A stretch of 64,000 nt of DNA, from contig OX597825.1 of the NCBI GenBank assembly GCA_951406725.2, positions 33,666,001 through 33,730,000 on the forward strand, written 5' to 3'. A model generated the notes under the pieces. It was not told the DNA's origin. It saw only the letters and a list, made by a program, of their open reading frames with translations, and made no database searches. Source of the stretch: Octopus vulgaris (Eukaryota). Shown here in pieces: positions 35,111 through 64,000 of the stretch. The position numbers were made by a program, and so were the translations under genes. Position 1 is the stretch's first letter, and the number at the start of each line of letters is the position of its first letter.

Positions 35111-37074
35111 TCTGCTACAGGCCGATGCGTTACTTTTTATGGATCTCAAAAGGATAAAATGCAAAGTTGACTTATGTGGGTTTTGAACTTACGACCCAGA
35201 TGCCGGAGAAAATATCGCAAAGCATCTATCTACCCAATTAACGACGCTGCTAATTCGACAACATACCGCACGTGCAACGGTCTTCCGGGTAGTTTCCATC
35301 TATCAAATTCCACTCACAATGTATTGGCCTAACTCGAGGCTAAAGTTGTAGACTCTTGCCGCTAGTACTGCCGCACACTAAGACTGAACTCAGAATCATA
35401 GTGTTGCAAGACAGATTTTGTTACCCATACAATCATATCTGTTCATAATTCATTCATTGACATAGTCAGACACAAAGACACTTTTGTTAACCTCACCTCC
35501 GCTCTCTCATGCACACGTCTACCTACGGGAATATAATATACATTATTATGATAAAGAAACAATGGTTTATAAATTGTAATTAACAATGACAAAATTTACA
35601 GGAAATAAAGACAAACAAAAGAGCGATATATAGAAAACCTATTGTTTTAATCAGCTGATGAAATCTGTTCTTAATATTTATTTACTTATGCTCTTCTTGG
35701 TTTATTTTTACGTTATAGAATGTACACCTTCCCAGTTTGTAATACTACACTTAGGAAACTTACCGAGGAAAAGTTAATAAGTGTAGCCTTTGTTCTTCGA
35801 TATATCTAAAGTTGGTATTGTATGTTCTATAAATGTTAGCAATCAGTCCAACAGAAAAGATCCTTATACGTATACACATCTGTATATTGATGTGAACAGA
35901 CATAAATTACATCAGATTAAGTAAGTGTACCTCTTGAATGAACAATCCTATGATAAAAGAAAATTTTAAGACTTTAAACAATATTAAAATACAATTCCAA
36001 TAAAACTTTTTATTCAAATTCCACACCCGATGGTGGAAGTTTGTGGCTTAGTGTTTAAGGGTGCTGGGCCTCATGATTGCAGGATTGTGGTTTTGATTCC
36101 TGGACTGGGCAATGCGTCGTGTTCTTGACCATAACTCCTCCAGTTAGCAAAACTGAATAATATGATGAAGTTGCAACAGTCCTAGCAAGCCGGCGATGGA
36201 TGGTAGACCTGCCAAAAGAGCAAGCAGTAGGGAACTTCTGGACTGACGGGTCATAGGCCTACCCTGTAGTTGGGTATTACCTCTTCAGTCCGTGCTCTGT
36301 GGTATATTTGTCCGCCTTGAACAACAAGGTCGAAATCACGTGAGCTGGTGGTCTCGACGCTGGAGGTGGCGGGGATTTATCTCCTCGCTAGCCATATAAA
36401 CAAGAGTGCATTTGCACCTAAAATCCAATGTGAGAGTTTCTCTCATAGTAACTACCGCAATATAGTTTGTTCAAATGGAACGTCCACGTTGTTAATATTA
36501 GTCGTTAATATAGATTTCGTACAACATATTAGTTCTATGAAAAGTTGTTTTGTCTCCCTGACTCAATGCTTCTCCGTTTCTGGAGAAAAGAACACTGCGA
36601 GTGATTTCCACGATTTTTCGCGAAGCGAAATGTAGGTGAGTTTGAGAGAAACAGATCAACCTTGATGTTTCACTGGTGATTTATTTAACGACTCCCGAAG
36701 GATGAAAAACAAAGTCGACATTGGTGGAATTTGAACTGAGCGTAAAAGTAACAACAAATACCGCATGGCATTCTGTCCAACGTTCTAACAACACAACTCT
36801 CTCTATTTCTTCCCCCCCATCTCTCTCTCTCTATTTCTCTCCTTTTTTCTTTCTCTCTGTCAACTCACTACCTTGAATATAAAATTTGCAAGTTTGCAAC
36901 TTGTTCTATATAAGATGTTTTCAGATTCAAATAGATAAGACCGCCTAAAATTGACTCCATGTACTTGAATGCTACCATTTTTTGCCGATTAAAATCTTAA
37001 ACGCAAACAGGATTCAATAGTTGACTTAATACAGCACATCAGTTGGAAAATTCCATTCCGATTCGTTGGCGTTT

Positions 37075-46842: not shown

Positions 46843-47447
46843 TATTTCTTTGTTGCCCACATGGGGCTAAACATAGAGCGGACAAACAAGGACAGACAAA
46901 GGGATTGAGTCGATTACATCGACCCCAGTGCGTAACTAGTACTATTTAATCGACCCCGAAAGGATGAAAGGCAAAGTCGACCTCGGCGGAATTTGAACTC
47001 AGAACGTAACGTCAGACGAAATACCTATTTCTTTACTACCCACAAGGAGCTACACACAGAAGGGACAAACAAAGACAGGCAAAGAGATTAAGTCGATTAT
47101 ATCGACACCAGTGCGTAACTGGTACTTAATTTATCGACCCCGAAAGGATGACAGGCAAAGTCGACCTCGGCGGAATTTGAACTCAGACAGTAGCGGCAGA
47201 CGAAATACCTATTTCTATTTCTTTACTACCCACAAGGGGCTAAACACAGAGAGGACAAACAAGGACAGACAAACGGATCAAGTCGATTATATCGACCCCA
47301 GTGCATAACAGGTACTTATTTAATCGACCCTGAAAGGATGAAAGGCAAATCAACCTTGGCGGAATTTGAACTCAGAACGTAACGGCAGACGAAATATCGC
47401 TAAGCATTTCGCTCGGCGTGCTAACATTTCTGGCAGCTCACCGCCTT
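46843..47447 (-). mobile_element. SINE family B trimer inside one 12-bp TSD
   Basis: Three ~185-bp units; TSD aacaccctcatt at 46831-46842 and 47448-47459. Confidence 0.9.
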
Positions 47448-49849: not shown

Positions 49850-50680
49850 ATTGTTTCAAATGTTGGCACAAGGCCAGACATTTTAAGGAAAGGAGTAAAT
49901 CGATTACATCGGATTCAGTGTTCAACTGATACTTATTTTATCGATCCCGAAAGGATGAAAGCTGAAGTTGACCGCAATAGTATTTGAACACAGAACGTAG
50001 GGTCGCTAAGCATGATAATAATTCTGCCAGCTCGTCACCTTACAAAGAACAATGGTCTTAAATTTTGGCACAGGGCCAGCAGTTTTTAATGGAAGAGGAA
50101 AGTTGATAAAATTAATCCCAGTACTGGATTGGTGCTTATTTTACCGACTCCGAAAAGATAAAAGACTAAGTCTGCCTCGGCGGAATTTTAGTTCGGAACG
50201 TAAAGAAAGACGTAATACCGCTAAGCATTTTGTCCGGAGTGCTAACGATTCTGCCGGTTCGTCGTCTTACACAAAACGAATAATCCTTTCTAGTATAGGC
50301 ACAAGGCTTGAAATTTGGGTGTGAGGAGGGGCCAGTTAATTATATCGACCCAGTTCTCGATTGGTACTTATTTTATCGACCTCGAACGGATGAAAGGCAA
50401 GCCGACCTCTGCGGAATTTAAACTCTAAACGTAAAGTCGAACGAAATGTCGCTAAGAATTTTGCCTGACATGCTAACGACTCTTATTTCCTTATTGCCCA
50501 CAAGGGGCTAAACATAGAGCGGACAAACAAGGACAGACAAACGGATTAAGTCGATTACATCGATCCCAGTGTGTAACTGGTACTCGACCTCGGCGGAATT
50601 TGAACTCAGAACGTAACGGCAGACGAAATACTGCTAAGTATTTCGCCCGCCGTGCTAACGATTCTGCCAACTCGTCGCTT
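49850..50680 (-). mobile_element. array of about four SINE family B copies
   Basis: Repeated atcgac.ccgaaaggatgaaaggcaaag...cggcggaatttgaac...ctgccagctcgtcgcc. Confidence 0.85.
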
Positions 50681-50874
50681 TACACAGGACAAATAATAAA
50701 AAATAAAATACGATATGAATATTTATATAGAAACATATTTAAAAATATTGTGTTTTTTTAACGAACATGAAAGAGTAAAAATGTCTACATTTTAACAAAT
50801 ATTTTGATGCTTTTTTTATGAGGTTCACGTTGTCGTTTTTATTATTGTGATGTCATTTAAAGCTGCAACTTGTG

Positions 50875-51039
50875 TCAAGAGAAAGACCATTCTTCTTTGC
50901 ATAAACCTTCTTTGCATGCTTGGCACAGATCTGTATTGTGCTGATTCCTAGGTTTGCCGGCACGACGGTCAATTCGAAGCGGAGGACGAACAAACCCGTA
51001 ATGCAGTTGACCAATTCGATTGTACACGTTTCCGATTAC
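50875..51039 (-). CDS. zf-3CxxC / RTP-like gene, terminal exon (VIGNVYNRIGQLHYGFVRPPLRIDRRAGKPRNQHNTDLCQACKEGLCKEEWSFS*)
   Basis: tttctttttag|GTA ATC GGA...TTC TCT TGA; phase 0 matches the previous donor. It contains the H....C.AC..G.C motif that closes the 3CxxC domain. A minus-strand AATAAA at 50843-50838 is a candidate polyA signal. Confidence 0.9.
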   Translation of the reverse strand, partial: VIGNVYNRIGQLHYGFVRPPLRIDRRAGKPRNQHNTDLCQACKEGLCKEEWSFS

Positions 51040-51149
51040 CTAAAAAGAAAATTTTTTAAAATCAACAACATGATAAGTATGTATGTATGTATGTATGTAT
51101 GTATGTATGTATGTATGTATGTATGTATATAAATATATGTATATATATA

Positions 51150-51425
51150 TAAAGAGAAAGGGAGAAAGAGACCCCTTCAGTTACGAATGACCATGGGATT
51201 GCACCGAGGAACAAGTCCGGTAAGGTTGTTTGTGGAAGACCAGTAGTAGCCCATGCATACCAGTCTCCCCTCTCCACACCACCGATGTTGTCCAAGGGAA
51301 AACCTGATACGTCGCAACTCATTTCTACAGCTTAGTGAACTGGAGAAACGTGAAATAAAGTGTCTTGCTCAAGTACACAACACACAGCCCGGTCCAGGAA
51401 TCAAACTCACTATCTCACGATTGAA
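51150..51425 (-). mobile_element. SINE with CORE-like body and distinct tail
   Basis: ctggagaaacgtgaaataaagtgtcttgctcaagtacacaacac is shared with 12640-12690. Confidence 0.7.
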
Positions 51426-51899
51426 GCTCAAACTGCCGTGTCATATCTTTTCTCAGTTCGAGCTATTTTTCTGTTAGTTCCAGGCGGGTTCCATAATCTA
51501 GTGTGTGCATATCTCTTATGACGAATGAAGTATATATGAGATTCTTCGCATTCTTCTAGCCATCGTCTTCACAACTAAATACATGATGACCGTTGACTCA
51601 CGTTAGTGAACCCATTGATGATAATACTGAACAAAAACTGACTTAAAAGTTAGATACCACACTGAAGCGATTCAGCAAAGATCGATATATGTGTATGTAA
51701 GTGGAATGTTATGAAAAATATAAACTTAAATTGAATACCATTACGGCTGAATTTTCAATCATTATTGATAGTTATGAAGTCACGAAGAATGAAATAACTT
51801 TAAACTATCAAAAGAAAAAAAGGAAAGGCAGTTGAGCTAGTAAAAAAAGACAATCTAATATGGAAAAATTCACCGATCCAATAATAGAGAGTTGAAATA

Positions 51900-52116
51900 T
51901 TGTTTTTAAAGTTTGGCACAAGGCCCGAAACTTCGGGGTAGAGGGCAAGTCGTATACATCGACCCCAGTGCTCAATGTATACTTATTTTATCGACCCCGA
52001 AACGATGAAAGGCAAAGTCGACCTTAGCGGAATTTGAACTTTGAACATAAACTCAGACGAAATGTCGCTAAGCGTTTTTGTTCGGCGTGCTAATGATTCT
52101 GCCAGCTTGTCGCCTC
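51900..52116 (-). mobile_element. SINE family B
   Basis: Same core as 46843-47447. Confidence 0.85.
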
Positions 52117-52165
52117 AAGACAGACGAAATATTATTTACCATATTCGATGGAGATATGTTTTTAT

Positions 52166-52202
<37 letters not shown>

Positions 52203-52496
52203 GTGGTGGTGATAGCTGTGGTAGTGATAATAGTTGTTGTGGTGGTGATGATGTGATGGTGATGGTGGTAATGACATTGATGGTGGTAGTCTCGTAGTTC
52301 TATAATCAAAGCCATGCCATTTTGAGGGTTTCTACAGAGTCACGTTAACTAATGCAGGCATGGGCAAGGTTATTCGAGAAGCGGCCCGCATGAGACATAG
52401 CTCATCAGCAGGCGGGCCCTACTCCTAAAAATAATGCCAAGTAATTTTTAGCTAGACGTGCCATGCAGGAAATCCCATGGATTGCCTTTTGTCCAT

Positions 52497-52758
52497 ACGA
52501 TAAACGTCGCCCTTTTCAAGCCTTGCCAGGCTCATGGGCCCAGTCCATCGCAGCGTTACTCAAGAAACAGGAAGAGAGAGTGAGAGAAAGTTGGTGGCGA
52601 AAGAGTACAACAGGGGTCACCACCAACCCCTGCCGGAGCTTCGTGGAGCTTTTAGGTGTTTTCGCTCAATAAACTCACAACGCTCGGTCTCGTAATCGAA
52701 ACCGCTATCCTCCGACCGCGAGTCCGCTGCCCTAACCACTGGGCCATTCCGCCTCCAC
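52497..52758 (-). mobile_element. tRNA-derived SINE with 12-bp TSD
   Basis: TSD ccttttgtccat at 52485-52496 and 52759-52770; tRNA-like head gtggaggcggaatggcccagtggttagggcagcggac. Confidence 0.85.
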
Positions 52759-53599
52759 CCTTTTGTCCATGACTCGTTATATGTCACTTCTTTTCTGAAG
52801 ACTTCTAGAGTATGATTGTGGCTGTTGTTGTTTAACTCCAGTCAGATTTTTTATGCCATACCAGGTCTTATTTTTCTTTCCTCAGAGAATTTTAATATTT
52901 TACAAGTGAAATATATCAACCGTCTTAACTAGCTACATACGACATTATAGAGAAGAAAATTAAGTCTACAAGTCAATGAGTCAAATATGTTACGTTAGCA
53001 ATATTAACTATGCTATAATATTTCTATGCATGTGTGTGTGTGTGTGACGTGCAAAGACTGCTAAGAGATAGAAATCATTAATTAACAACTCCTTAACCGC
53101 TGTTGGAAGCTATTTTTGTCTACACGAGAAGCTTTCTCAAGACGTATACAGCAGTTTTGTAGCTTTCGATAGTATTTCCACGTTAAGTAAGATATATATA
53201 ATGCTGTTCTGAACCAATACTGCTTCTGTTGCTAATAACAAATTTCTACTCAGCCCGCAAACTATCTTCAAAACCAGTGATTTGTTAATTATTGTTTTCC
53301 TGTTTTAGTAAAAGCAAAATTTGTCTGAGCATCTGGTTGATAGTGTATACTTGCTACTGATGACGAGCAAAGACACTGGGTTTGGCAATACTATCACCAT
53401 GCTGAATGCCTTTCGTTTGTTATTGATACACTTCTATGCTTTTTAGCACTATACGTCTATATGAGATGCTTTCTCAATACCGCAATTTCGTGGCTTTTGA
53501 TAGAATATCCATGTTAAGTAAGATGTACAGAATGATATTTAGTTTTGTATATTAGTTAATATAAGCAAATTAGTAATGTTAGTATATATTAGTTAACAT

Positions 53600-55140
53600 A
53601 TTCACAAATACACACACAGAGGAATATAGACGTGCAGTATAAAGAAAGAAAAAATAAAGATGCACTTGAAGTCTTTAAAAATATTTATTTACATTTACTT
53701 AACCGCTTTACAATTCCATCATACTGGAAATACTGTAAATGAAAGGACCGAGAACAATGCCGTATTGTCTCGAGTTTGACTGGAATTAAAACATTTACTC
53801 CTTTTATAGAGAAATTCTGGCTTAAACTGCCATGCTAGAATTTTGGTGATTTGTTTGTTGCACGTAAATCTTAATGTTCACTTAGCAGAATCTGTCCCGG
53901 TATTAGAATTTCGTATTTACTGCCTATGAATACCCAGTCTGTTTCTTACGGCAAGCTTCTTTTACCTTGTGTAATCTTCATTACAGCTGTTACATTTAGT
54001 AGAATAAATTAAGATTTTTGATGCACAAATGAAGTGATTTTTTTTATGCAGTGAAATATGTTCTGATGTGAATTCATAAGATATGTTTTCTATAATGTTG
54101 ATGCAAATTCTGCAGTCACACTGACCGCATTTTTTTTAGTATAGGTCTTGTGTTAGCAGTGGATAATTTGGCGTTGGTAAGTAATACATTTAGGAATTTA
54201 GGTTGTTTTTTGCTTTTGATTATTTTGTGTATTTCGGGTGCTTGTTTCATTCTTAGATCTTGCATTGAATGTTTCTGTTTTCTTGGGTTATCTGTTGTGA
54301 TGTATTACAGAATATTTGGCGCATTATTTTTGTAATATGTGATTCTTAAACTTCTTTTGCTTTGTCACGTTCTATTACGTTAATAAATTTTGTTGAAGAC
54401 TGTCTTTCAAGTAGAATTTGGTTTAATTCTTGGAGTCTTGTATTTTGAGTTTCAAAATTCGAAATGAATGAATATATTCTTTGTGATAGATTAAACAGTT
54501 ACATTCGTTTCCGTATGTTTTGCATCGCAAGAATTTAATAATAAGCCTTTTTTAGAGTCTGTCGGTTTCAATATTTATATACTTTGTTATTTGTAAGATA
54601 TCCAGGAAGGATAGCCGATTTGTATTCCATAGTGTTTATTATTCCCGTTGTTTATTAATCAAAATTATGAAATCAATAAGTTGGTCAAAACCAGAATGAA
54701 GTAGTCATCCAAGTTATCTCTCCAATTCTTTTAATAGATAATTTGTAGAAGTTGATGTTGCACTTCAGTCTGGACTGTTCGCATATTTGGATTCCTGCGG
54801 ATGCCATGACCAAATTGGTGTACGTTGGGGCAACCACCATTCCCATTGCAGTTCGAGGTATTTGTTCGTAACTATTGTCACTAAAGTTGAAAAGATTATT
54901 TTGTGTGATAAATTTAATTCCTGCAGTAATTTATTTTTATCTATTCGCTCCGGTATTTCGTTGAGGAATATTTCAAGACAGAATTGTATGGCTTTTGCAT
55001 GGATAGTAGGATAGAGATTTACTTTATTATATATGTGAGACGGTTTACATGTTTTCTGAGAGGTGGTTTAACAGGCCCCAGTCACAGCTTACAACGCTTG
55101 GTATGTAATTTAGAGTAGGCTTCAGCAATATGTCTGCTAT
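53600..55140 (-). mobile_element. degraded Penelope-like RT/GIY-YIG element in an RTP intron
   Basis: FNFSDNSYEQIPRTAMGMVVAPTYTNLVM (Q..GTAMG..AP.YANL), LDD and RLSFLDI. Confidence 0.8.
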
Positions 55141-55148
55141 GTTACTAA

Positions 55149-55217
<69 letters not shown>

Positions 55218-55222
<5 letters not shown>

Positions 55223-55412
55223 AGAATTTACAAAAAAACAACAAAAGACGAAGACGGGTATGTAATCAACAAACAGATGTATTAGTATTAACGCTCGGGA
55301 AGTGAGAAAGTCTTTTACGTTTCGAGCCTACGCTCTTCGACAGAAAGGATCACAGAAATAAACAGGGAGAGAAAATAGAAAACGGCATAGTGGCTAGCGA
55401 TCTATCATGGCG
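55218..55412 (-). mobile_element. Penelope tail fragment with hammerhead-like motif
   Basis: Near-identical to the reverse complement of 10310-10490; motif at 55312-55347. Confidence 0.85.
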
Positions 55413-55413
55413 A

Positions 55414-55452
<39 letters not shown>

Positions 55453-55541
55453 CAGAGTGAGAATAGAAAGTGGAGACAGACAGGCCGAGACGAAAACAGA
55501 AGCAGAGACAAATGGCAATAATGGAAAGTTGATTCACTCAC

Positions 55542-55712
55542 TTTTACAACTTCTTCAGGGTACCACATTGCTGGTTCATAACAACCATTTTTACATCGCA
55601 TGCATTGTTGGCCATATAATTTAAACATCACATAACCAGAACTAGTTGCGAAATTCAAATGAAACCAAAATATAACTCTGCCTTTCATCGAAGTCCAACC
55701 ATGACCACATTG
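55542..55712 (-). CDS. zf-3CxxC / RTP-like gene, middle exon (QCGHGWTSMKGRVIFWFHLNFATSSGYVMFKLYGQQCMRCKNGCYEPAMWYPEEVVK)
   Basis: tgttatag|CAA TGT GGT...GTT GTA AAA|gtgagt; 171 nt, 57 codons, phase 0 at both ends. It completes the CQ|QC motif and carries WTS and LYGQQCxxC, matching RTP C..C...W.S and LFGQ.C..C. Confidence 0.92.
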
Positions 55713-56331
55713 CTATAACAAATATAAGAAAAAATAATACCTAGGAATTACTGAACTAGTCATAAGTTAAGGAAAAGAAGAAACATTGTAAATGTGTTGC
55801 TTTAATACTTTAAATAAAAATTTATGCAAATAAGTAACGGGTATCAAGATTTTATCTATCCTAGTAATAAAGTATAGCTATATTATTCTCTACTGGAAGC
55901 TAAATGAATTAGCAGGACAAGAAAGCAAAAGAAGGAAAATAATGACTGTAGAAATAGTATATTTATCATAAATACAAAGAGAGTAGCGTCCTTATGCAAC
56001 TATAAAACTATTAATTGCAAGGCTATTAAAAAAAACTTGCAATGAGTAAATGGCTATAAAAAAAAACTTGCAATGAATACAAGATATAAAACACGAACAA
56101 AATTAAAAACGAAAACGTCTTCAAGGACGGTAACAAATGTAGAGAGGATAATAGAGAAATAAACAGAAATCATTTAAAAAAGAAAAACTAAACATTGAGC
56201 TGATAATGAAATTATTGTAAGGTATGCCATATATACTTGTATACATTATATATGTATATATATGCTTATATAAAAGTATATATATATATATATTTACTAT
56301 AAATATTATATGCATGTATTGATATACACAT

Positions 56332-56508
56332 GGCGTAGGAGTGGCTGTGTGTTAAGTAGCTTGTTTACGAACCACATGGTTCCGGGTTCAGTCCCACTGC
56401 GTGGCACCTTGGGCAAGTGTCTTCTACTATAGCCTCGGGCCGACCAAAGCCTTGTGAGTGGATTTGGTAGACGGAAACTGAAAGAAGCCCGTCGTATATA
56501 TATATATG

Positions 56509-56589
<81 letters not shown>

Positions 56590-56789
56590 CTGTGTTTCTG
56601 TGTTTGTCTTCCCAACATCGCTTGACAACCGATGCTGATGTGTTTACGTCCTCGTAACTTAGCGGTTCTGCAAAAGAGACCGATAGAATAAGTACTAGGC
56701 TTACAAAGAATAAGTTGATTTGCTCGACTAAAGGCGGTGCTCCAGCATGGCCACAGTCACATGACTGAAACAAGTAAAACAGTAAAACA
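56332..56789 (+). mobile_element. SINE family A, full-length
   Basis: Colinear with 30233-30697. Confidence 0.9.
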
Positions 56790-57120
56790 TACATATATAC
56801 TTATATATACACTATATATACATGTATAAATATATATACAAACATATTCATACGTATACATATACACATACACACTCACGCATACACACACACACATACA
56901 CACACACGCGCGCACACACACACACGTGCCCACACGCACACTCGAGGGTCGGTTGAAAAGTCCATAGGCTGACCAAGATGTTCTCATTGAAAGTGACCAA
57001 AAACTGATACAGCAAAACACCTTTCGCCAGTTTTGCTGGCGTTTCGTCGTGATAGCCTTTTGTAACTGCCTCACCAAGTTGACACAGTACTCTCCTTCCT
57101 CGCCTCATTTAATATTCTGC

Positions 57121-57174
<54 letters not shown>

Positions 57175-57178
<4 letters not shown>

Positions 57179-57315
57179 AGCAGTTCCTCTTGATTTCTCC
57201 CTTCATCATTTTTGCTCTTCGGGCAGTAGTTTCTTTTCCAGAAAATTATACTTCATCTGCTATAAGGCCAGTTAGCAATTTCCAGAGTAATGGTAAGCAA
57301 GTAATAGGTCTCGTC
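57175..57315 (-). mobile_element. R4/Dong-type RT fragment next to (GAA)n
   Basis: RPITCLPLLWKLLTGLIADEV is an RT subdomain motif of R4/Dong elements. Confidence 0.75.
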
Positions 57316-57498
57316 TTCTTCTTCTTCTTCTTCTTCTTCTTCTTCTTCTTCTTCTTCTTCTTCTTCTTCTTCTTCTTCTTCTTCTTCTTCTTCTTCTTCT
57401 TCTTCTTCTTTGTTTTGCCACAGGTCATTGAAATGATCTGTGTACGTATATTTATACTTATGTATGCACACATGTATGTATGTATGTATGTATGTATG

Positions 57499-57529
<31 letters not shown>

Positions 57530-57929
57530 GATCGGCTATTTATGAAGGCTGCAATTTTATTCGTGATATAAATTTCGTTTCAGCTATAAATGACAACCAA
57601 TTTAAATCCAGCCAAGTTCAAATTACTTATATAGATAGACAGAGTGCCTGAAGTAGTATACATGATAAATCTATTTTAAATAACAAATCTCTCAAACGTC
57701 AAACTCTCACTATCTTATTGTGTGCTCACGGCCTTCTTTCGAGAAGTGGTTCTAAATGCCAGGCTAGAGAAGCTTGGGTGGCCACTTCAGAAAGCCTGAG
57801 CATGGTTGTGTTACTTTATTGCCACACAAACACACGTACATGTATATATAGATATATATATAATTCTTTTATTCTTTTACGTTTTAGAGCGCTCCTTAAA
57901 AATCCAACAATTGTTTCAATTGCATTAAC

Positions 57930-58314
57930 CTATACATACATACATACGTACATATATACGTACATACAAACATACATACATACATACATACATACATACA
58001 TACATAATACATACATACATACATACATACATACATACATACATACATACATACATACATACATACATGCATGCATACATACATACCTACATACCTACAT
58101 ACATGCATGCATACATACATACATACATACATACATACATACATAATACATGCATACATACATACCTACATACATACATACATACATACATACATACATA
58201 CATACATACATACATACATACATACATACATACATACATACATACATACATACATACCTACATACATACATGCATGCATGCATACATACATACATACATA
58301 CATACATACATACA

Positions 58315-58342
<28 letters not shown>
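57930..58342. repeat. (CATA)n tetranucleotide microsatellite
   Basis: Seen directly, about 400 bp. Confidence 0.95.
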
Positions 58343-58345
<3 letters not shown>

Positions 58346-58605
58346 TCAAGTATACACATACCGATATATATGTATATGCATAATATTATTAGAATTAATA
58401 ATAATATATACGAAAAATTATATCAACACACCATTATTAAGGTAATCCAAATAGGTGAAATTCTAACTGAAAATCTGGAAAATTTTAGCTCTTAATAAAC
58501 GCTAACAAAAAGAAACGCCAAACCAAATTTAACTTTAGACATTCATTCATCCAACCAAGACTGACGTCATTGAATAACTAATTTAGTTTAGAAAGGTAAA
58601 ATATA

Positions 58606-59142
58606 AACAAGAGCAGTCAGAGAGCGCAAAGCTCAACCAAGGTAACACCAACGTCTTCTCAACGATTAGCCAGAGATGATTTTTAAAATGAAAACACAAA
58701 CGAGAATACTAAAAACCCGGAAAAAGTAAAAAACCCGGAAAAAATAATCCAGAATCCTGTCTGGATTATTCTATTCTAATGGTAGTCACGGAATGTGAAG
58801 GTGGCTGTAGAAAATTTAGTAACAGTAATAAATAGTTTATTCTTATCTAATTCACCATTCAAAAGAGTTACGGCCTAAAGAGAGATAAATGAGAAAGACT
58901 TGAAAGTTAACGTATGATCATAATCATGTAAAGTATATATAACAAATAATCTAGAATCCTTGTCAGATACCAGATCGATCCCCAAATCTAATCAGTTCGT
59001 GCCAGTCACGATACCAAACATCACCGAAAGTTTCATCTGAATTCATCCAGTGGTTCTTGAGATATCTTGTCCATGGACAAAGAAACAAATAAACAAACGC
59101 GACTGAAAACAATACTCCACCTTTGCTAAGGCAAACGTAAAA
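58606..59142. mobile_element. Helentron-associated non-autonomous element (HINE/DINE-like), interrupted
   Basis: aacaagagcagtcagagagcgcaaa at one end and gaaaacaatactccacctttgctaaggcaaacgtaaaa (terminal hairpin) at the other; the insert is flanked by duplicated aaataatc.agaatcct. Confidence 0.65.
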
Positions 59143-59287
59143 ATACCATACTAATTCCATATTTTCTGGCAATTTGAAATCTACATAGAAAAAGCCTAAC
59201 TTTGAAAACGAGTATATTTATCTACTAAAATTGATGACGTCACTGGATATCTAAAGAACAAAAACTGCAGTCAAGAATTCTACGTTA

Positions 59288-60548
59288 TCTATATATATAT
59301 AATTTTGTTTGTTTGTTTGTCTGTCTGTCTATTCCCTATGCATTCTCAAACGGTTCCACCAAATCAAATCAAATGTTACAAGGTAATAGTATTACACTCA
59401 GCGAGTGTCAACATGTAGCTTTTATTTTCGTTTGGATTGAAATAATATAACATTTTCTCGAAAATAATCTTTCTGTAGTCAACTATAGTAACGGACATTT
59501 TATACCACGACGACGGCGACGTCACATTTTGTATACGAGTGTGTATGTGTCTGTGAAGGTGTGTGTTTGCGCGTTCGTTACGTATGATATAGTAAAGAGC
59601 ATTTTTATACCACGACGACGACGACGTTACACCTCTATCATTCTCTCTTCATTCTATCAACCATTCTGTCTAGCGTTTACCGTTCTAACAATGTTTGGCA
59701 CCAAAAAAATATTACAGCTACTTTTATTGTTTACAATCTTCAGCACTGGTGTATTTGTGTACACCAACACAAACAAAATCTTAAAAAAGCTGAAAGGTCA
59801 AACAAAAACGCTGTACCGGTGTACCAGTAAATAACCATGTTGTAACGATTTCTGGTACCAAGAACATTATTACAGCTACTTTCATTGTTTACAAACTTCT
59901 GTATTTGTGTATCAGTAAATAACAATGGGTAAATATTTCGTAAAGGACCAGTTCATACCTAGGTGTGAAATCATTTTTTCCACAAGGTTTTTCGAATGCA
60001 TTCAACGTGTCTGACCTCCAAACCCGCTGCAAGCCACTTTTTTCCGGAAAAGAAAAGTGGTGGGGGAGGGGCGCCAAAAAGTTATTTCACAGCGAAATAT
60101 CGGCGGGTCCTTTATCACAAATAGCTGTTACGTGGTAGTAGGGCGTGCAAGAGATAGCAGCCAAATCTTTCCTTTTCTGGGGAAAAGAACCGTTTACGCA
60201 TGATTTCGATGTCACATTCGTTGAAAGTATGCGAAGTAACCTGGAAAAGAAAAAACAAAAACCCGCGAAACAGAACTCCGTTGGTAGGAAACTCCTAGGT
60301 CCCCACCACCCCTCCCCCATTCTTTTCTGGAAAAAGGTGGCTTACGGCGGGTTTGAAGGTCAGATACGCTGATTGCACTCGAAAAATCTCGTGGATAAAA
60401 ATTATTTGACACTGAGGTACGAACGGCTCTTTTACGAAATATTTACCTAACCATGCCCAGAAGGAAGGTGTCAAATTACACTGCAAGCAAAGAGTACTGT
60501 TTAAGGCTATTAGTTTATAACCCGAGTGAAACCGGGTCCTTCTGTTTG
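59288..60548 (+). mobile_element. non-autonomous Helitron with internal inverted repeat
   Basis: a|TCTATATATAT...(gtct)n 5' end; 3' hairpin cccgagtgaaaccggg followed by a degenerate CTAG (tttg)|t. Confidence 0.65.
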
Positions 60549-60659
60549 TGCTTAATATATAATTGAAGAATAAAAACTACCGATAATAATTCTACGTAAT
60601 GCTTAATAGAAACTTATATACTTTAACTCGCAACAATTAATTACCCATTGATATATTTA

Positions 60660-61090
60660 ATATAATAAACCCTTCTATAGGAATTAACCTTATTTTATAA
60701 TAACTGAAGAATTATTATATTCGACAATATACACAACCACCGAGGATCTTACTAGGTAATTAAAGAATGAAAATTACAGAAAAGACAACTAAATATCTAT
60801 TTATTTATTATAATAAACTCATATATAAGAATTAACCTTATTATATAATAATTGAAAAATTATTATAATAAATTACAATATGTACAGTTATTGATGACTA
60901 CGCCAGATAACTAAAGAATAAAAATAACAGATAAGATAATTAAATACCTATTTATTTTTATATTATACCCTTCAGTAGGAATTATGATTATTATATAATA
61001 ATTTTAAAAATTACTATAATTAATAATATATACAATTCTTGATGACCTCGGCGGATAATTAAAAGAATAAAAATTATTGATAAGAATTCT
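60660..61090. repeat. AT-rich ~150-bp degenerate tandem repeat, about three copies
   Basis: gaattaaccttatt.tataataa.tgaa.aattattata...aaagaat.aaaat.acaga recurs at about 60680, 60830 and 60980. Confidence 0.75.
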
Positions 61091-61692
61091 ACGTTATGCA
61101 TAATCGAAGCTTCTAAAATGTGTGCCGAAATTCGAAGGATTATTTTGCTACAATGGTAAAACGTGTAACATGTGTTACAGAAGATGTGGGTTCGAGTTCC
61201 ATAGGTAAGCTTTCACTTTTTCCATCCAAGGTTTCCATCCAACATTTATTTACTATTATTTATAGCTCTATCTACTTCAAGGTGTACCGTTATAAACTAT
61301 TTATTTCATATCCATCGAAGATTCTAAATTCTTATGACCAAAACAAATTTGTATATTTCAATGAATTCTTGAACATCTTATAAAACGATGTTAATCTCCG
61401 TCTGTCTGTCCGTCTCAACATCTATTAGAAGGGAAGAAGGGGAGGAGTCAAAAGGGGAGATAACCCGTGCTACAACGTATATTTAGAAGGGGAGGAGAAA
61501 ATTGTTCTTGAGAGAGAAATACAATTAGAGAGGGAGAGTGAAAGATAGATAGATATGTATGTATGTGGGTAGGTAGGTAGGTAGTTGTCACCATAGAAAC
61601 TAACAAATTTTGATAAAAAACGTTGGAATTTTAAGTGCAAGTCTGTGAACAGAACGCAACACAGACTTCAAAAAACAATAAATATATATATG

Positions 61693-61731
<39 letters not shown>

Positions 61732-62071
61732 TTACGAGCAAAATGCCCACCGTCCAGTGTGTGTGTATGTGTGTGAGTGTGTGTGAGTGTGTAAGTGCGT
61801 GTGTGTTTCTCTATGTCTTTCAACATATAGACAACGTTAGACAGACTTTAAGAAAGAATTTCACTAAGACAGGTTGTTGTTGTTGTTGTTGTTGCTGCTG
61901 AGAGAAAGAGTGTGTGAAAGACAAAATACAAAATTTGTTTCAAGAAAGAAAAAAACAGGTTGTTGCTGAGCCTATCAATGTGATCATTGTTGTAGGCTTC
62001 TGCGGAAGGGTCTATTACATCTTGACTATTCAGAAATATTTATTAAAGGGGATAAATTAATCCCTCACCGT

Positions 62072-62134
<63 letters not shown>

Positions 62135-62345
62135 ACACACACATACACACACGCATCACATCATGTAACTTTTGCAAGAATTTCAAGCTAGAGTTTCTGA
62201 TTTGAGGATAGCTTTCTCCCTTCACTTTATCACTTTCGAAGCTCGTGGGCGTCACCCTATTTTCACTGATTAAGACTAAAACTTCGAATAAAAAAGAAAC
62301 AAAAAAAATCTGACAAACTAATTAAGAAATAATTTTCCCTTTTAC

Positions 62346-62490
62346 CTGACAAGAAAATCTGACTTTCGCACTGTCTTTAAAGGTTCTCCATCGATTACTT
62401 GGTGGGTAATGAGTCGACAAGAGGTGCCATTGGTCTGGGAAGTATTGACAAAACAGCCGATCGAATTCTCCATGCCATACCATCTCCATA
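62346..62490 (-). CDS. zf-3CxxC / RTP-like gene, first visible coding exon (MEMVWHGEFDRLFCQYFPDQWHLLSTHYPPSNRWRTFKDSAKVRFSCQ)
   Basis: Reverse complement reads ttttcttag|T ATG GAG ATG GTA TGG...TCT TGT CAG|gtaaa. There are 48 open codons from the ATG at 62489, an acceptor AG at 62492-62491 and a donor GT at 62345-62344. The W..F..LF...W.L and A.VRF.C pattern resembles the N-terminal part of the RTP zf-3CxxC domain. Confidence 0.88.
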
Positions 62491-62775
62491 CTAAGAAAAT
62501 AAAATGAAAAAATGTTTCCATATTCTTTCGTTGCAGATCGAAAAGAAATATTTTAAATGAAAGTAAAACATCTCAGTTTTAAACTGTTATCAATATCACT
62601 TCCACCTGTTACGTTTGTGGTCATGTGGAGTGACAGCGTGGGAGCAGTGGCAATGGCAAGTTAGAGATGTTTAGACACACATGAGTTTGCATACATGTAT
62701 ACATATATGTGAACACAAACGCCTGATTTCGTCCAGTAAAGAAACCGCGTAATTCTTATTACGTTACAACCCATA

Positions 62776-62852
<77 letters not shown>

Positions 62853-64000
62853 ATTCTATATAAATATTGATTTCTAAAAAGTTTCAGCCTCTGATTTAAA
62901 GCATTCATATGAAAAGAGATTAAATAAGATCGTTCGACATTTCTGCATTTTATTTTTCTCTTCTTCCATGTGTATTATGAAAAACATTCAAATTAATTTT
63001 CTACAACAGACCTCAAGAGACAAAGATATGATAAAGATTGTTAAGTAACGATTTTCGAAGCAAGACTGAACATCATTACCATTTAACTTTACTTTTAGAT
63101 TTTCGAAGTGCAATGTTACCAAGCACAAAAAGTGAATGTACGTATTGCCCAACAGAGGGTAGTGTTGTTGGCAAAATATAATGGCGACCGGAAGTCAACC
63201 TATTATAGCTGCAGCAATATACTAACAAAATTTCATTACTAAATGTACTTTGCAAATGTGTTATCGTATATAAGTGTATTTATCTGTTTATAGGTTTGTA
63301 CAAATAAATGAAGTGAAGTGAGAGCTTAAGCATACTGGGTAAAACAAAAACAGGGACACTTTACACAAATATGTAGTGTCTTAGTTGGTAATGTATATCC
63401 TCGGTATTAATAACATACGGTTAACGACCTTAACACCTGTTCAGCATTGAAACGTAATCTGTACTAAAGTAATGTAACCCTAAAGTTTCATGTTGCCTTG
63501 AAACTATTGCAATCCACTCCATTGAACTAGAAATACATATTCAACATGTTACAAAATTTAAGAAAAGAAAAACATTTTCCAATGTTCCCAAGACAAACTT
63601 TGCCAATTATTTCAGAGGCAGTTTGAAGAGTTTAGATTATGACAGTATCGAACATAAATATAGTAGGTTTGACTACATCCAGTATTTTCAACATCAGAAA
63701 CAACCACAGTAGGGTTAAAACGACGAATAGTAACCGACGACACTTAGGAAATCAGTAACATTTTCGAGTTATCTCCCCTAAGATAGTGTGTACCCATGAC
63801 AGCTAACTTTATAAGGGATTCAATCACTTCCAATTTAAGTTGAGGCATATTTCAAAATTTGGAATTTACATAAGAGTTAAGAAGGTGTATAGAGCATATA
63901 CATATAATTCATATGCATATAATTTTATCCCTACATATTACAACGTTATTGGTAGCCACGTATAACACTATTCCACCTTCCTTTAGAGTTATCAGCATAG

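What the first reader, a model, noticed from the sequence alone, without database searches (positions are those of the whole stretch)
50875..62490. Hidden three-exon zf-3CxxC (RTP-like) gene with no membrane anchor
Seen: three exons splice in phase into a 159-aa Cys/His/Trp-rich protein with CQ|QC, CMRC and H-x4-CQAC-x4-C motifs; the ORF track shows only part of one exon. It stops seven residues after the last Cys (KEEWSFS*), with no hydrophobic tail. Known: vertebrate RTP1/2 are C-terminally anchored chaperones for odorant GPCRs, and RTP4 is an interferon-induced antiviral whose zinc finger binds viral RNA. Inference: a soluble invertebrate RTP may reflect an ancestral RNA-binding or innate-immune role, or act in chemoreceptor trafficking in cephalopod sensory tissue. 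The single T before the ATG implies an upstream exon, possibly an N-terminal extension.
Basis: partly seen in the sequence, partly recalled or inferred. Interest (0 to 1): 0.75.

Follow-up and report, generated by a model that had tools for sequence, protein, structure and literature searches.

The report
Octopus RTP-like zinc finger, slow branch
This is a real, already annotated octopus gene for a small zinc-finger protein with no membrane anchor; it belongs to a very slowly changing invertebrate branch of the RTP family and likely binds the cell's own RNA, which is untested.

Summary
Three minus-strand exons splice in phase to 159 aa, match Pfam PF13695, and contigs from 4 of 4 runs bridge the last junction. 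The gene is not hidden: two more coding exons lie beyond the window, and all five give a 206-aa protein identical to NCBI records (CAI9731025.1, XP_029643699.1 'RTP4'). Having no membrane anchor is ordinary: 90 of 92 complete relatives lack a hydrophobic tail, and fish RTPs lack one (PMC8172065). What stands out is conservation. Searches found one locus in the genome, and its domain is 60-68% identical to sea urchin, tunicate and amphioxus proteins, in a branch that follows animal phylogeny. Amphioxus also has a separate, expanded, fast branch. So this is probably not an RTP4-like arms-race gene or a cephalopod sensory novelty. Best reading (0.5): a soluble, ZAR1-like binder of host RNA; untested. 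The Ciona orthologue was described in 2013 and is barely LPS-inducible. No vertebrate RTP could be placed in the tree. The scan found the same branch before in a scallop.

The parts
62491..64000 (-). Part of the intron upstream of coding exon 3; it runs out of the window. Coding exons 1 (77 coding nt, G000:C12:33800639-33800715) and 2 (63 nt, G000:C12:33733531-33733593) lie beyond the window's end
62346..62490 (-). Coding exon 3 (145 nt, entered in phase 2): Met48, first helix, first strands, Cys94
   Evidence: loose end of an X1 contig
55713..62345 (-). Intron, GT-AG, phase 0, 6633 nt
55542..55712 (-). Coding exon 4 (171 nt): Cys97, WTSMKG, CMRC (Cys132/135), WYPEEVVK
51040..55541 (-). Intron, GT-AG, phase 0, 4502 nt; skipped exactly by contigs of 4 of 4 runs
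   Evidence: table 5
50875..51039 (-). Coding part of exon 5: long helix, basic loop RIDRRAGKPR, His186, Cys191/194/199, KEEWSFS, TGA
50709..50874 (-). 3' untranslated part of exon 5, at least this long (contigs cannot show the end); an AATAAA lies at 50843-50838
35912..35947 (-). Candidate alternative last exon (AG acceptor, 11 codons, stop) matching the tail of O. bimaculoides model XP_014780923.1; would drop the last zinc motif, adds no TM helix; use in this animal not tested

Best explanation
The gene encodes a 206-residue protein with a short Pro/Ser/Thr-rich front end and a zf-3CxxC domain with no membrane anchor, and it likely acts as a soluble binder of the cell's own RNA. Shown: five coding exons, the domain, no hydrophobic tail, one locus found, and very slow change from molluscs to chordates. 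Predicted: residues 48-200 fold into one mixed alpha/beta domain, the front end is disordered, and eight invariant or near-invariant Cys/His residues would hold two zinc ions. Inferred: invariant Arg/Lys and aromatic residues form the binding surface, the partner is fixed and host-encoded, and the variable front end sets location or condensate partners, as in ZAR1. The likely job is constitutive control of mRNA storage, stability or translation.
For: Five exons give 621 nt, identical to P0123. AlphaFold2: mean pLDDT 82, blocks 51-170 at 90-98, blocks 1-40 at 48-56. In a 39-row alignment C97, C132, C135, H186, C191, C194, C199 are 39/39 and C94 38/39; R91, K105, K152, R178 are 39/39; K89, R107, K126, R177 38/39. 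The core has 21 K+R against 13 D+E, pI 9.1. Core identity to the octopus protein: molluscs 74-96%, Lingula 78%, amphioxus 68%, echinoderms 63-64%, tunicates 60-62%. The amphioxus core is 100% identical in three Branchiostoma species, while 45 pairs of fast paralogues have a median of 65%. Deuterostome and lophotrochozoan members form sister groups (30 rows, support 98/99). Four genome searches found only this locus at E below 0.1. The ZAR1 RNA-binding domain is the second structural hit (Z 5.1, rmsd 3.9, 83 aligned, 18% identity). Both ZAR1 and RTP4 bind RNA through this domain (PMC12799850, PMC10470548, passages). The Ciona orthologue is constitutive and only weakly changed by LPS (PMC3639994).
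Against: No binding, location or knock-down data exist for this branch in what I read. The ZAR1 match is in the range the tool calls common, and it is tied with unrelated metallopeptidases; Foldseek and sequence searches of the PDB found nothing. Slow change fits a fixed protein partner, or invariant dsRNA, equally well. The domain has an N-terminal helix outside the part aligned to ZAR1. The octopus front end is only 47 residues. An amphioxus 'RTP3' is induced about 1000-fold by poly(I:C), and I could not tell which paralogue it is. The 2013 Ciona paper predicted two TM segments in the orthologue; they appear to fall on the domain's two helices in my model, which is my reading.
Confidence: 0.5

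Rival explanations
1. An innate-immune or antiviral protein that works like RTP4: it binds viral or double-stranded RNA in the cytosol and blocks replication.
For: RTP4 binds viral RNA through the same domain and stays active without its TM segment (PMC10470548). An amphioxus 'RTP3' has log2 change 10.0 after poly(I:C). The Ciona orthologue is expressed in haemocytes, and LPS switches it to a short transcript without the domain. dsRNA is an invariant ligand, so slow change does not exclude a sensor.
Against: Antiviral RTPs show positive selection and repeated expansion (PMC8172065); this gene shows the opposite. Amphioxus has a separate fast family, one member fused to a death effector domain, which is the more likely induced gene (inference). 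The full-length Ciona transcript hardly responds to LPS; dsRNA was not tested there.
Confidence: 0.2
2. An accessory protein for GPCR trafficking like RTP1/RTP2, acting from the cytosolic side of the ER without an anchor, possibly for chemoreceptors.
For: PMC8172065 states that the TM segment is dispensable for receptor trafficking and that RTP1/2 lack signs of positive selection. The N-terminal and middle parts of RTP1S drive ER and Golgi exit (PMC5460901); the octopus model has an N-terminal helix and sheet in that position.
Against: The TM segment is needed for raft location and odorant response. The branch is conserved far beyond any one chemoreceptor family. Many conserved residues are basic. 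No sensory-tissue expression data were found.
Confidence: 0.15
3. A conserved protein-protein adaptor or subunit of a complex, or a DNA-binding factor, with a role unlike both ZAR1 and the vertebrate RTPs.
For: Invariant runs such as WTSMKG and WYPEEV-K include acidic and aromatic residues; the ZAR1 match is weak.
Against: No partner is known; the family members with biochemical data that I read about bind RNA or receptors.
Confidence: 0.15

Closest known systems
NCBI CAI9731025.1 (O. vulgaris, hypothetical protein) and XP_029643699.1 (O. sinensis, 'receptor-transporting protein 4')
   Same: Identical 206-aa sequence.
   Different: Nothing in sequence. The name RTP4 looks like a best-hit label, not shown orthology.
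Ciona Ci8long (ENSCING00000009651; Vizzini et al. 2013, PMC3639994)
   Same: Same branch (Ciona savignyi core 61% identical). The first 73 residues of P0061 have 21.9% Pro and 13.7% Gly, as reported for Ci8short. Five exons, and a phase-2 intron within one codon of the octopus position before the domain.
   Different: 437 aa with a long C-terminal tail; an LPS-induced intronic poly(A) site gives a short form; the authors predicted two TM segments.
Vertebrate RTP1-4 (zf-3CxxC, PF13695)
   Same: Same Pfam domain with three CxxC motifs; fish RTPs also lack a TM segment (PMC8172065).
   Different: Amniote RTPs have the domain first, then a variable region and a TM anchor, and many evolve fast. The Ciona domain is only 21-31% identical to vertebrate RTPs but 55% to a tick protein (PMC3639994). 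No vertebrate sequence was obtained here.
ZAR1/ZAR2 (PDB 9JKO, RNA-binding domain of human ZAR1)
   Same: Disordered front end plus C-terminal zf-3CxxC, no TM; weak structural match over residues 81-197.
   Different: 18% identity over 83 residues; no sequence hit; ZAR1 is oocyte-specific, and expression of this gene by tissue is unknown.
Amphioxus fast RTP-like paralogues (e.g. XP_078573984.1; DED fusion P0272)
   Same: Same domain; the three whose hydropathy I printed have no TM segment.
   Different: 32-36% identical to the octopus core, expanded and diverging; a separate group with support 100/100.

Membership tests
zf-3CxxC superfamily (Pfam PF13695) | Score above the curated cut-off | tested here: met
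   75.7 bits against 23, profile positions 2-100 of 100
zf-3CxxC superfamily (Pfam PF13695) | Three CxxC motifs plus the His and last Cys | tested here: met
   C94/C97, C132/C135, C191/C194, H186, C199
zf-3CxxC superfamily (Pfam PF13695) | Binds zinc | not testable with these tools
   Inferred from conserved ligands only
Amniote RTP1-4 | C-terminal transmembrane anchor | tested here: not met
   Seven residues after the last Cys; highest KD19 0.91; reading through the stop would add only six residues
Amniote RTP1-4 | Domain at the N-terminus followed by a variable region | tested here: not met
   47-residue low-confidence front end, domain at the C-terminus
Vertebrate RTP family | Orthology by phylogeny | not testable with these tools
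   No named vertebrate RTP was returned, so none is in the tree
Antiviral RTP3/RTP4 type | Rapid evolution or lineage expansion | tested here: not met
   One locus found; core 95% to Argonauta, 90% to Sepia, 68% to amphioxus. Protein level only; no dN/dS
Antiviral RTP3/RTP4 type | Induction by interferon, dsRNA or virus; binding of viral RNA | not testable with these tools
   Runs carry no library or tissue labels
RTP1/RTP2 type | Promotes surface expression of chemosensory GPCRs; expressed in sensory neurons | not testable with these tools
   No expression or interaction data
ZAR1/ZAR2 | Disordered N-terminal region plus C-terminal zf-3CxxC, no TM | tested here: met
   ZAR1 layout from PMC12799850
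ZAR1/ZAR2 | Sequence and fold close to the ZAR1 RNA-binding domain | tested here: inconclusive
   Z 5.1, rmsd 3.9, 83 aligned, 18% identity; no hit by sequence
ZAR1/ZAR2 | Oocyte-specific expression and mRNA binding | not testable with these tools
   No tissue data
Slow invertebrate RTP-like branch (Ci8long type; a group I defined from these data) | WTSMKG and WYPEEV-K motifs; grouping with mollusc, brachiopod and deuterostome members | tested here: met
   the bootstrap had not fully settled (0.973)

The most novel reading that the evidence does not exclude
This gene marks an ancient, nearly single-copy RNA-regulatory zinc-finger protein of bilaterian animals that vertebrates no longer have in this form. 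It split early from a second, fast immune branch seen in amphioxus and an octocoral, and the vertebrate RTPs came from that fast branch. The RTP family would then be far older than jawed vertebrates, with host-RNA control as its original job and antiviral and receptor-trafficking roles added later.
Probability: 0.3. Interest if true: 0.6.

Novelty: already known. Interest (0 to 1): 0.27.

Why it matters
As a gene it is ordinary and annotated. Its value is evolutionary. [quoted passage not shown] The data here show a slow branch across molluscs, brachiopods, annelids, chelicerates, echinoderms, hemichordates, amphioxus and tunicates, beside a fast expanded branch in amphioxus. A minimal 206-residue member is a convenient handle for asking what the RTP domain did before interferon and odorant receptors.

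Tried and rejected
Alternative TM tail: no hydrophobic tail in the main form; the one candidate alternative last exon gives 11 residues, too short for a TM helix; the tail of a second O. bimaculoides model (P0121) was not found below the donor in the window. Stop read-through would add six residues; no other letters were listed in four contig sets, which cannot exclude rare editing. Paralogues: PF13695, P0123, the fast-branch protein P0270 and P0011 hit only this locus at E below 0.1; only 4-27 candidates were scored per search, so distant or finely split paralogues such as a ZAR1 could be missed. Second mollusc N-terminal type: best score 21.4 in 121.5 kb upstream against 23.3 in the reversed control and 39-71 for true members, so not detected. 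Structure: no PDB hit by sequence or Foldseek, none among viral models; metallopeptidase and Shiftless rows were treated as noise. Vertebrate RTP and ZAR1 sequences could not be retrieved (12 hits among 2287 candidates, named ones all amphioxus). No run was on record as RNA ('no RNA holder listed'), so tissue and level are unknown. Pfam on 28 of the 129 window ORFs gave nothing above a cut-off; Rfam gave nothing on 1-56200. The identity of amphioxus gene 276140F could not be resolved from the paper's supplements. No complex prediction was run because no partner is claimed.
Full report
Observation. On the minus strand, exons 62490-62346, 55712-55542 and 51039-50875 have AG acceptors and GT donors and join into 159 codons and a TGA; the other frames are closed. 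The middle and last exons hit Pfam Zn_ribbon_3CxxC; the first alone does not. Contigs from 4 of 4 runs laid, from four studies, skip the 4502-nt intron exactly, and in run X1 the loose end at 55714 reads into the 62346 exon. I laid 4 of the 24 runs listed.

The whole gene. A search with the middle exon returned 123 relatives. Cluster members included P0123, 206 aa, recorded as CAI9731025.1 (Octopus vulgaris, hypothetical) and XP_029643699.1 (O. sinensis, 'receptor-transporting protein 4'). Two more coding exons lie beyond the window, at G000:C12:33800639-33800715 and 33733531-33733593. The five exons give 621 nt and a protein identical to P0123. Four searches of the genome found only this locus at E below 0.1, with few candidates scored each time.

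The missing anchor. The highest 19-residue hydropathy is 0.91. Of the 120 relatives listed, 92 have the complete last zinc motif; the other 28 did not match the pattern (mostly fragments or reads into introns) and were dropped. Of the 92, 62 end within 20 residues and 2 have a tail window of 1.6 or more, both fusion models (claudin, serine protease). Boys et al. 2021 (PMC8172065; passages and the first third of Results) report that all amniote RTPs have a TM domain, fish RTPs lack it, and it is dispensable for trafficking and antiviral roles. A TM-less human RTP4 stays antiviral (PMC10470548, passages). Some unnamed distant relatives do have hydrophobic tails (P0233, P0251). One candidate alternative last exon at 35947-35912 encodes only 11 residues.

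Structure. AlphaFold2 with 39 sequences gives a confident domain from about residue 48 and a low-confidence front end; the basic loop near 171-190 is less certain. Eight Cys/His residues are conserved in 38-39 of 39 rows, as are eight Arg/Lys residues. Two zinc sites are inferred from the count; I did not see coordinates. No solved structure matched by sequence or Foldseek. The wide structural search ranked the RNA-binding domain of human ZAR1 second (Z 5.1, rmsd 3.9, 83 residues, 18% identity), tied with unrelated folds. That is weak alone but agrees with the shared family (PMC12431671, passages).

Evolution. A profile search found 784 proteins at E up to 0.001 and listed 150. I chose 73 proteins by hand for a tree, favouring named and complete ones and leaving out fragments, near-copies and the long split-domain proteins. 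Eighteen lophotrochozoan and 12 deuterostome rows form sister groups (98/99); chelicerate rows lie next to them unresolved. Ten amphioxus paralogues form a separate group (100/100) near an octocoral protein and unnamed sequences. The bootstrap had not settled and the root is a midpoint. Core identity to the octopus protein is 74-96% in molluscs, 60-68% in deuterostome invertebrates, 55-63% in most chelicerates, 34-45% in crustaceans and 32-36% in the amphioxus fast group. The slow amphioxus core is identical in three species. Among hits with a species name, 0 of 56 (120 listed) and 0 of 62 (102 listed, amphioxus query) are vertebrates or insects (my count from the listings). I had no positive control that vertebrate RTPs can be retrieved, so loss in vertebrates is suggested, not shown.

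Literature. Vizzini et al. 2013 (PMC3639994; parts 1-4 of 5 read) cloned Ci8long from Ciona. Its first 73 residues match P0061 in composition, which I take as the same gene. The domain was 55% identical to a tick protein and 21-31% to vertebrate RTPs. The long transcript was constitutive, seen in haemocytes of the pharynx, the only tissue studied, and weakly changed by LPS; a domain-less short transcript was induced. The authors predicted two TM segments and gave no function. In amphioxus, 'RTP3' gene 276140F rose with log2 change 10.0 after poly(I:C) (PMC5752451; one table passage and one supplement row); the paralogue is unknown. ZAR1 has a disordered N-terminus and a C-terminal RNA-binding 3CxxC domain (PMC12799850, passages). 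RTP1S needs its TM segment for raft location (PMC5460901, passages). PMC7230320 and PMC12220480 were seen as passages only. Eight searches listed no functional study of a mollusc member; most were seen as listings only, one search was dominated by unrelated terms, subscription journals are not covered, and bioRxiv supplements were not examined. Boys et al. 2020 was seen only as cited by others.

Mechanism. Shown: gene structure, splicing of the last junction, domain, no anchor, slow change. Predicted: fold and disordered front end. Inferred: zinc binding, a basic and aromatic surface for RNA, and a fixed host partner. I put constitutive binding of host RNA at 0.5, an RTP4-like immune role at 0.2, GPCR trafficking at 0.15 and another adaptor role at 0.15. 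It may work like ZAR1, but it is not filed as ZAR1 or as RTP1-4: the anchor and domain order of amniote RTPs are not met, and orthology could not be tested.

Earlier notes of this scan. A scallop finding (e1-9589399) reached the same view of a slow, unstudied branch; I saw it after forming mine, and it is not independent support. A second note (e1-9962866) on alternative starts led me to check front ends: two types exist in bivalves and gastropods, and the second was not detected in this genome. Look-ups by sequence and by place returned nothing.

Verdict. Observation confirmed; interpretation partly supported; gene already known; interest 0.27. The boldest reading not excluded, an ancient host-RNA regulator distinct from the lineage that gave vertebrate RTPs, has probability about 0.3 and would deserve about 0.6.

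Noticed in passing
window 35947-35912 (minus strand): An AG acceptor followed by 11 codons and a stop matches 8 of 10 compared residues of the tail of O. bimaculoides model XP_014780923.1. It may be an alternative last exon that drops the last zinc motif, loosely like the domain-less short form in Ciona.
   Followed up: partly
proteins P0003, P0126, P0127, P0250, P0255, P0256: Six relatives continue with Trp exactly where the stop lies in others. A gene caller reading TGA as Trp is the likelier cause, since three of them look like single exons read from unspliced DNA. In the three cuttlefish-type records A-to-I editing of the stop is not excluded; it would add 35-39 residues (KD19 1.45 in P0003).
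   Followed up: partly
mollusc relatives; G000:C12:33728491-33850000: Bivalves and gastropods show two front-end types joined at the same point, one ending in a conserved LINYGDKDLGLLLSQR-like run. The octopus protein has the other type; the second was not detected upstream.
   Followed up: yes
P0272 (Branchiostoma lanceolatum): A fast-branch paralogue carries a death effector domain (37.5 bits, cut-off 35.9) in front of the 3CxxC domain.
   Followed up: partly
P0059, P0135, P0136: The slow-branch core is 100% identical in three Branchiostoma species.
   Followed up: yes
many of P0152-P0182: Long proteins of about 460-1200 aa end in the same domain split by a low-complexity insert; one short member is named from a mite (P0172). 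Left out of the tree.
   Followed up: no
P0186 (Montipora), P0253 (Paramuricea); ESM Atlas clusters: Cnidarians have members on both sides of the tree, with long branches; look-alike clusters include Ascomycota proteins, so the domain is likely older than animals with bilateral symmetry.
   Followed up: partly
P0061 (Ciona intestinalis database model, 655 aa): The model adds claudin domains, whereas the cloned cDNA encodes 437 aa (PMC3639994); probably two genes merged.
   Followed up: partly
window 46843-47396: Three tandem copies of a 190-bp unit; repeats near 50280-50785 and 51800-52055 draw very deep contig cover, as expected for dispersed repeats.
   Followed up: no
row 24: Human Shiftless (9kbo_A) aligns at Z 3.5 over 73 residues; too weak to use.
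   Followed up: no
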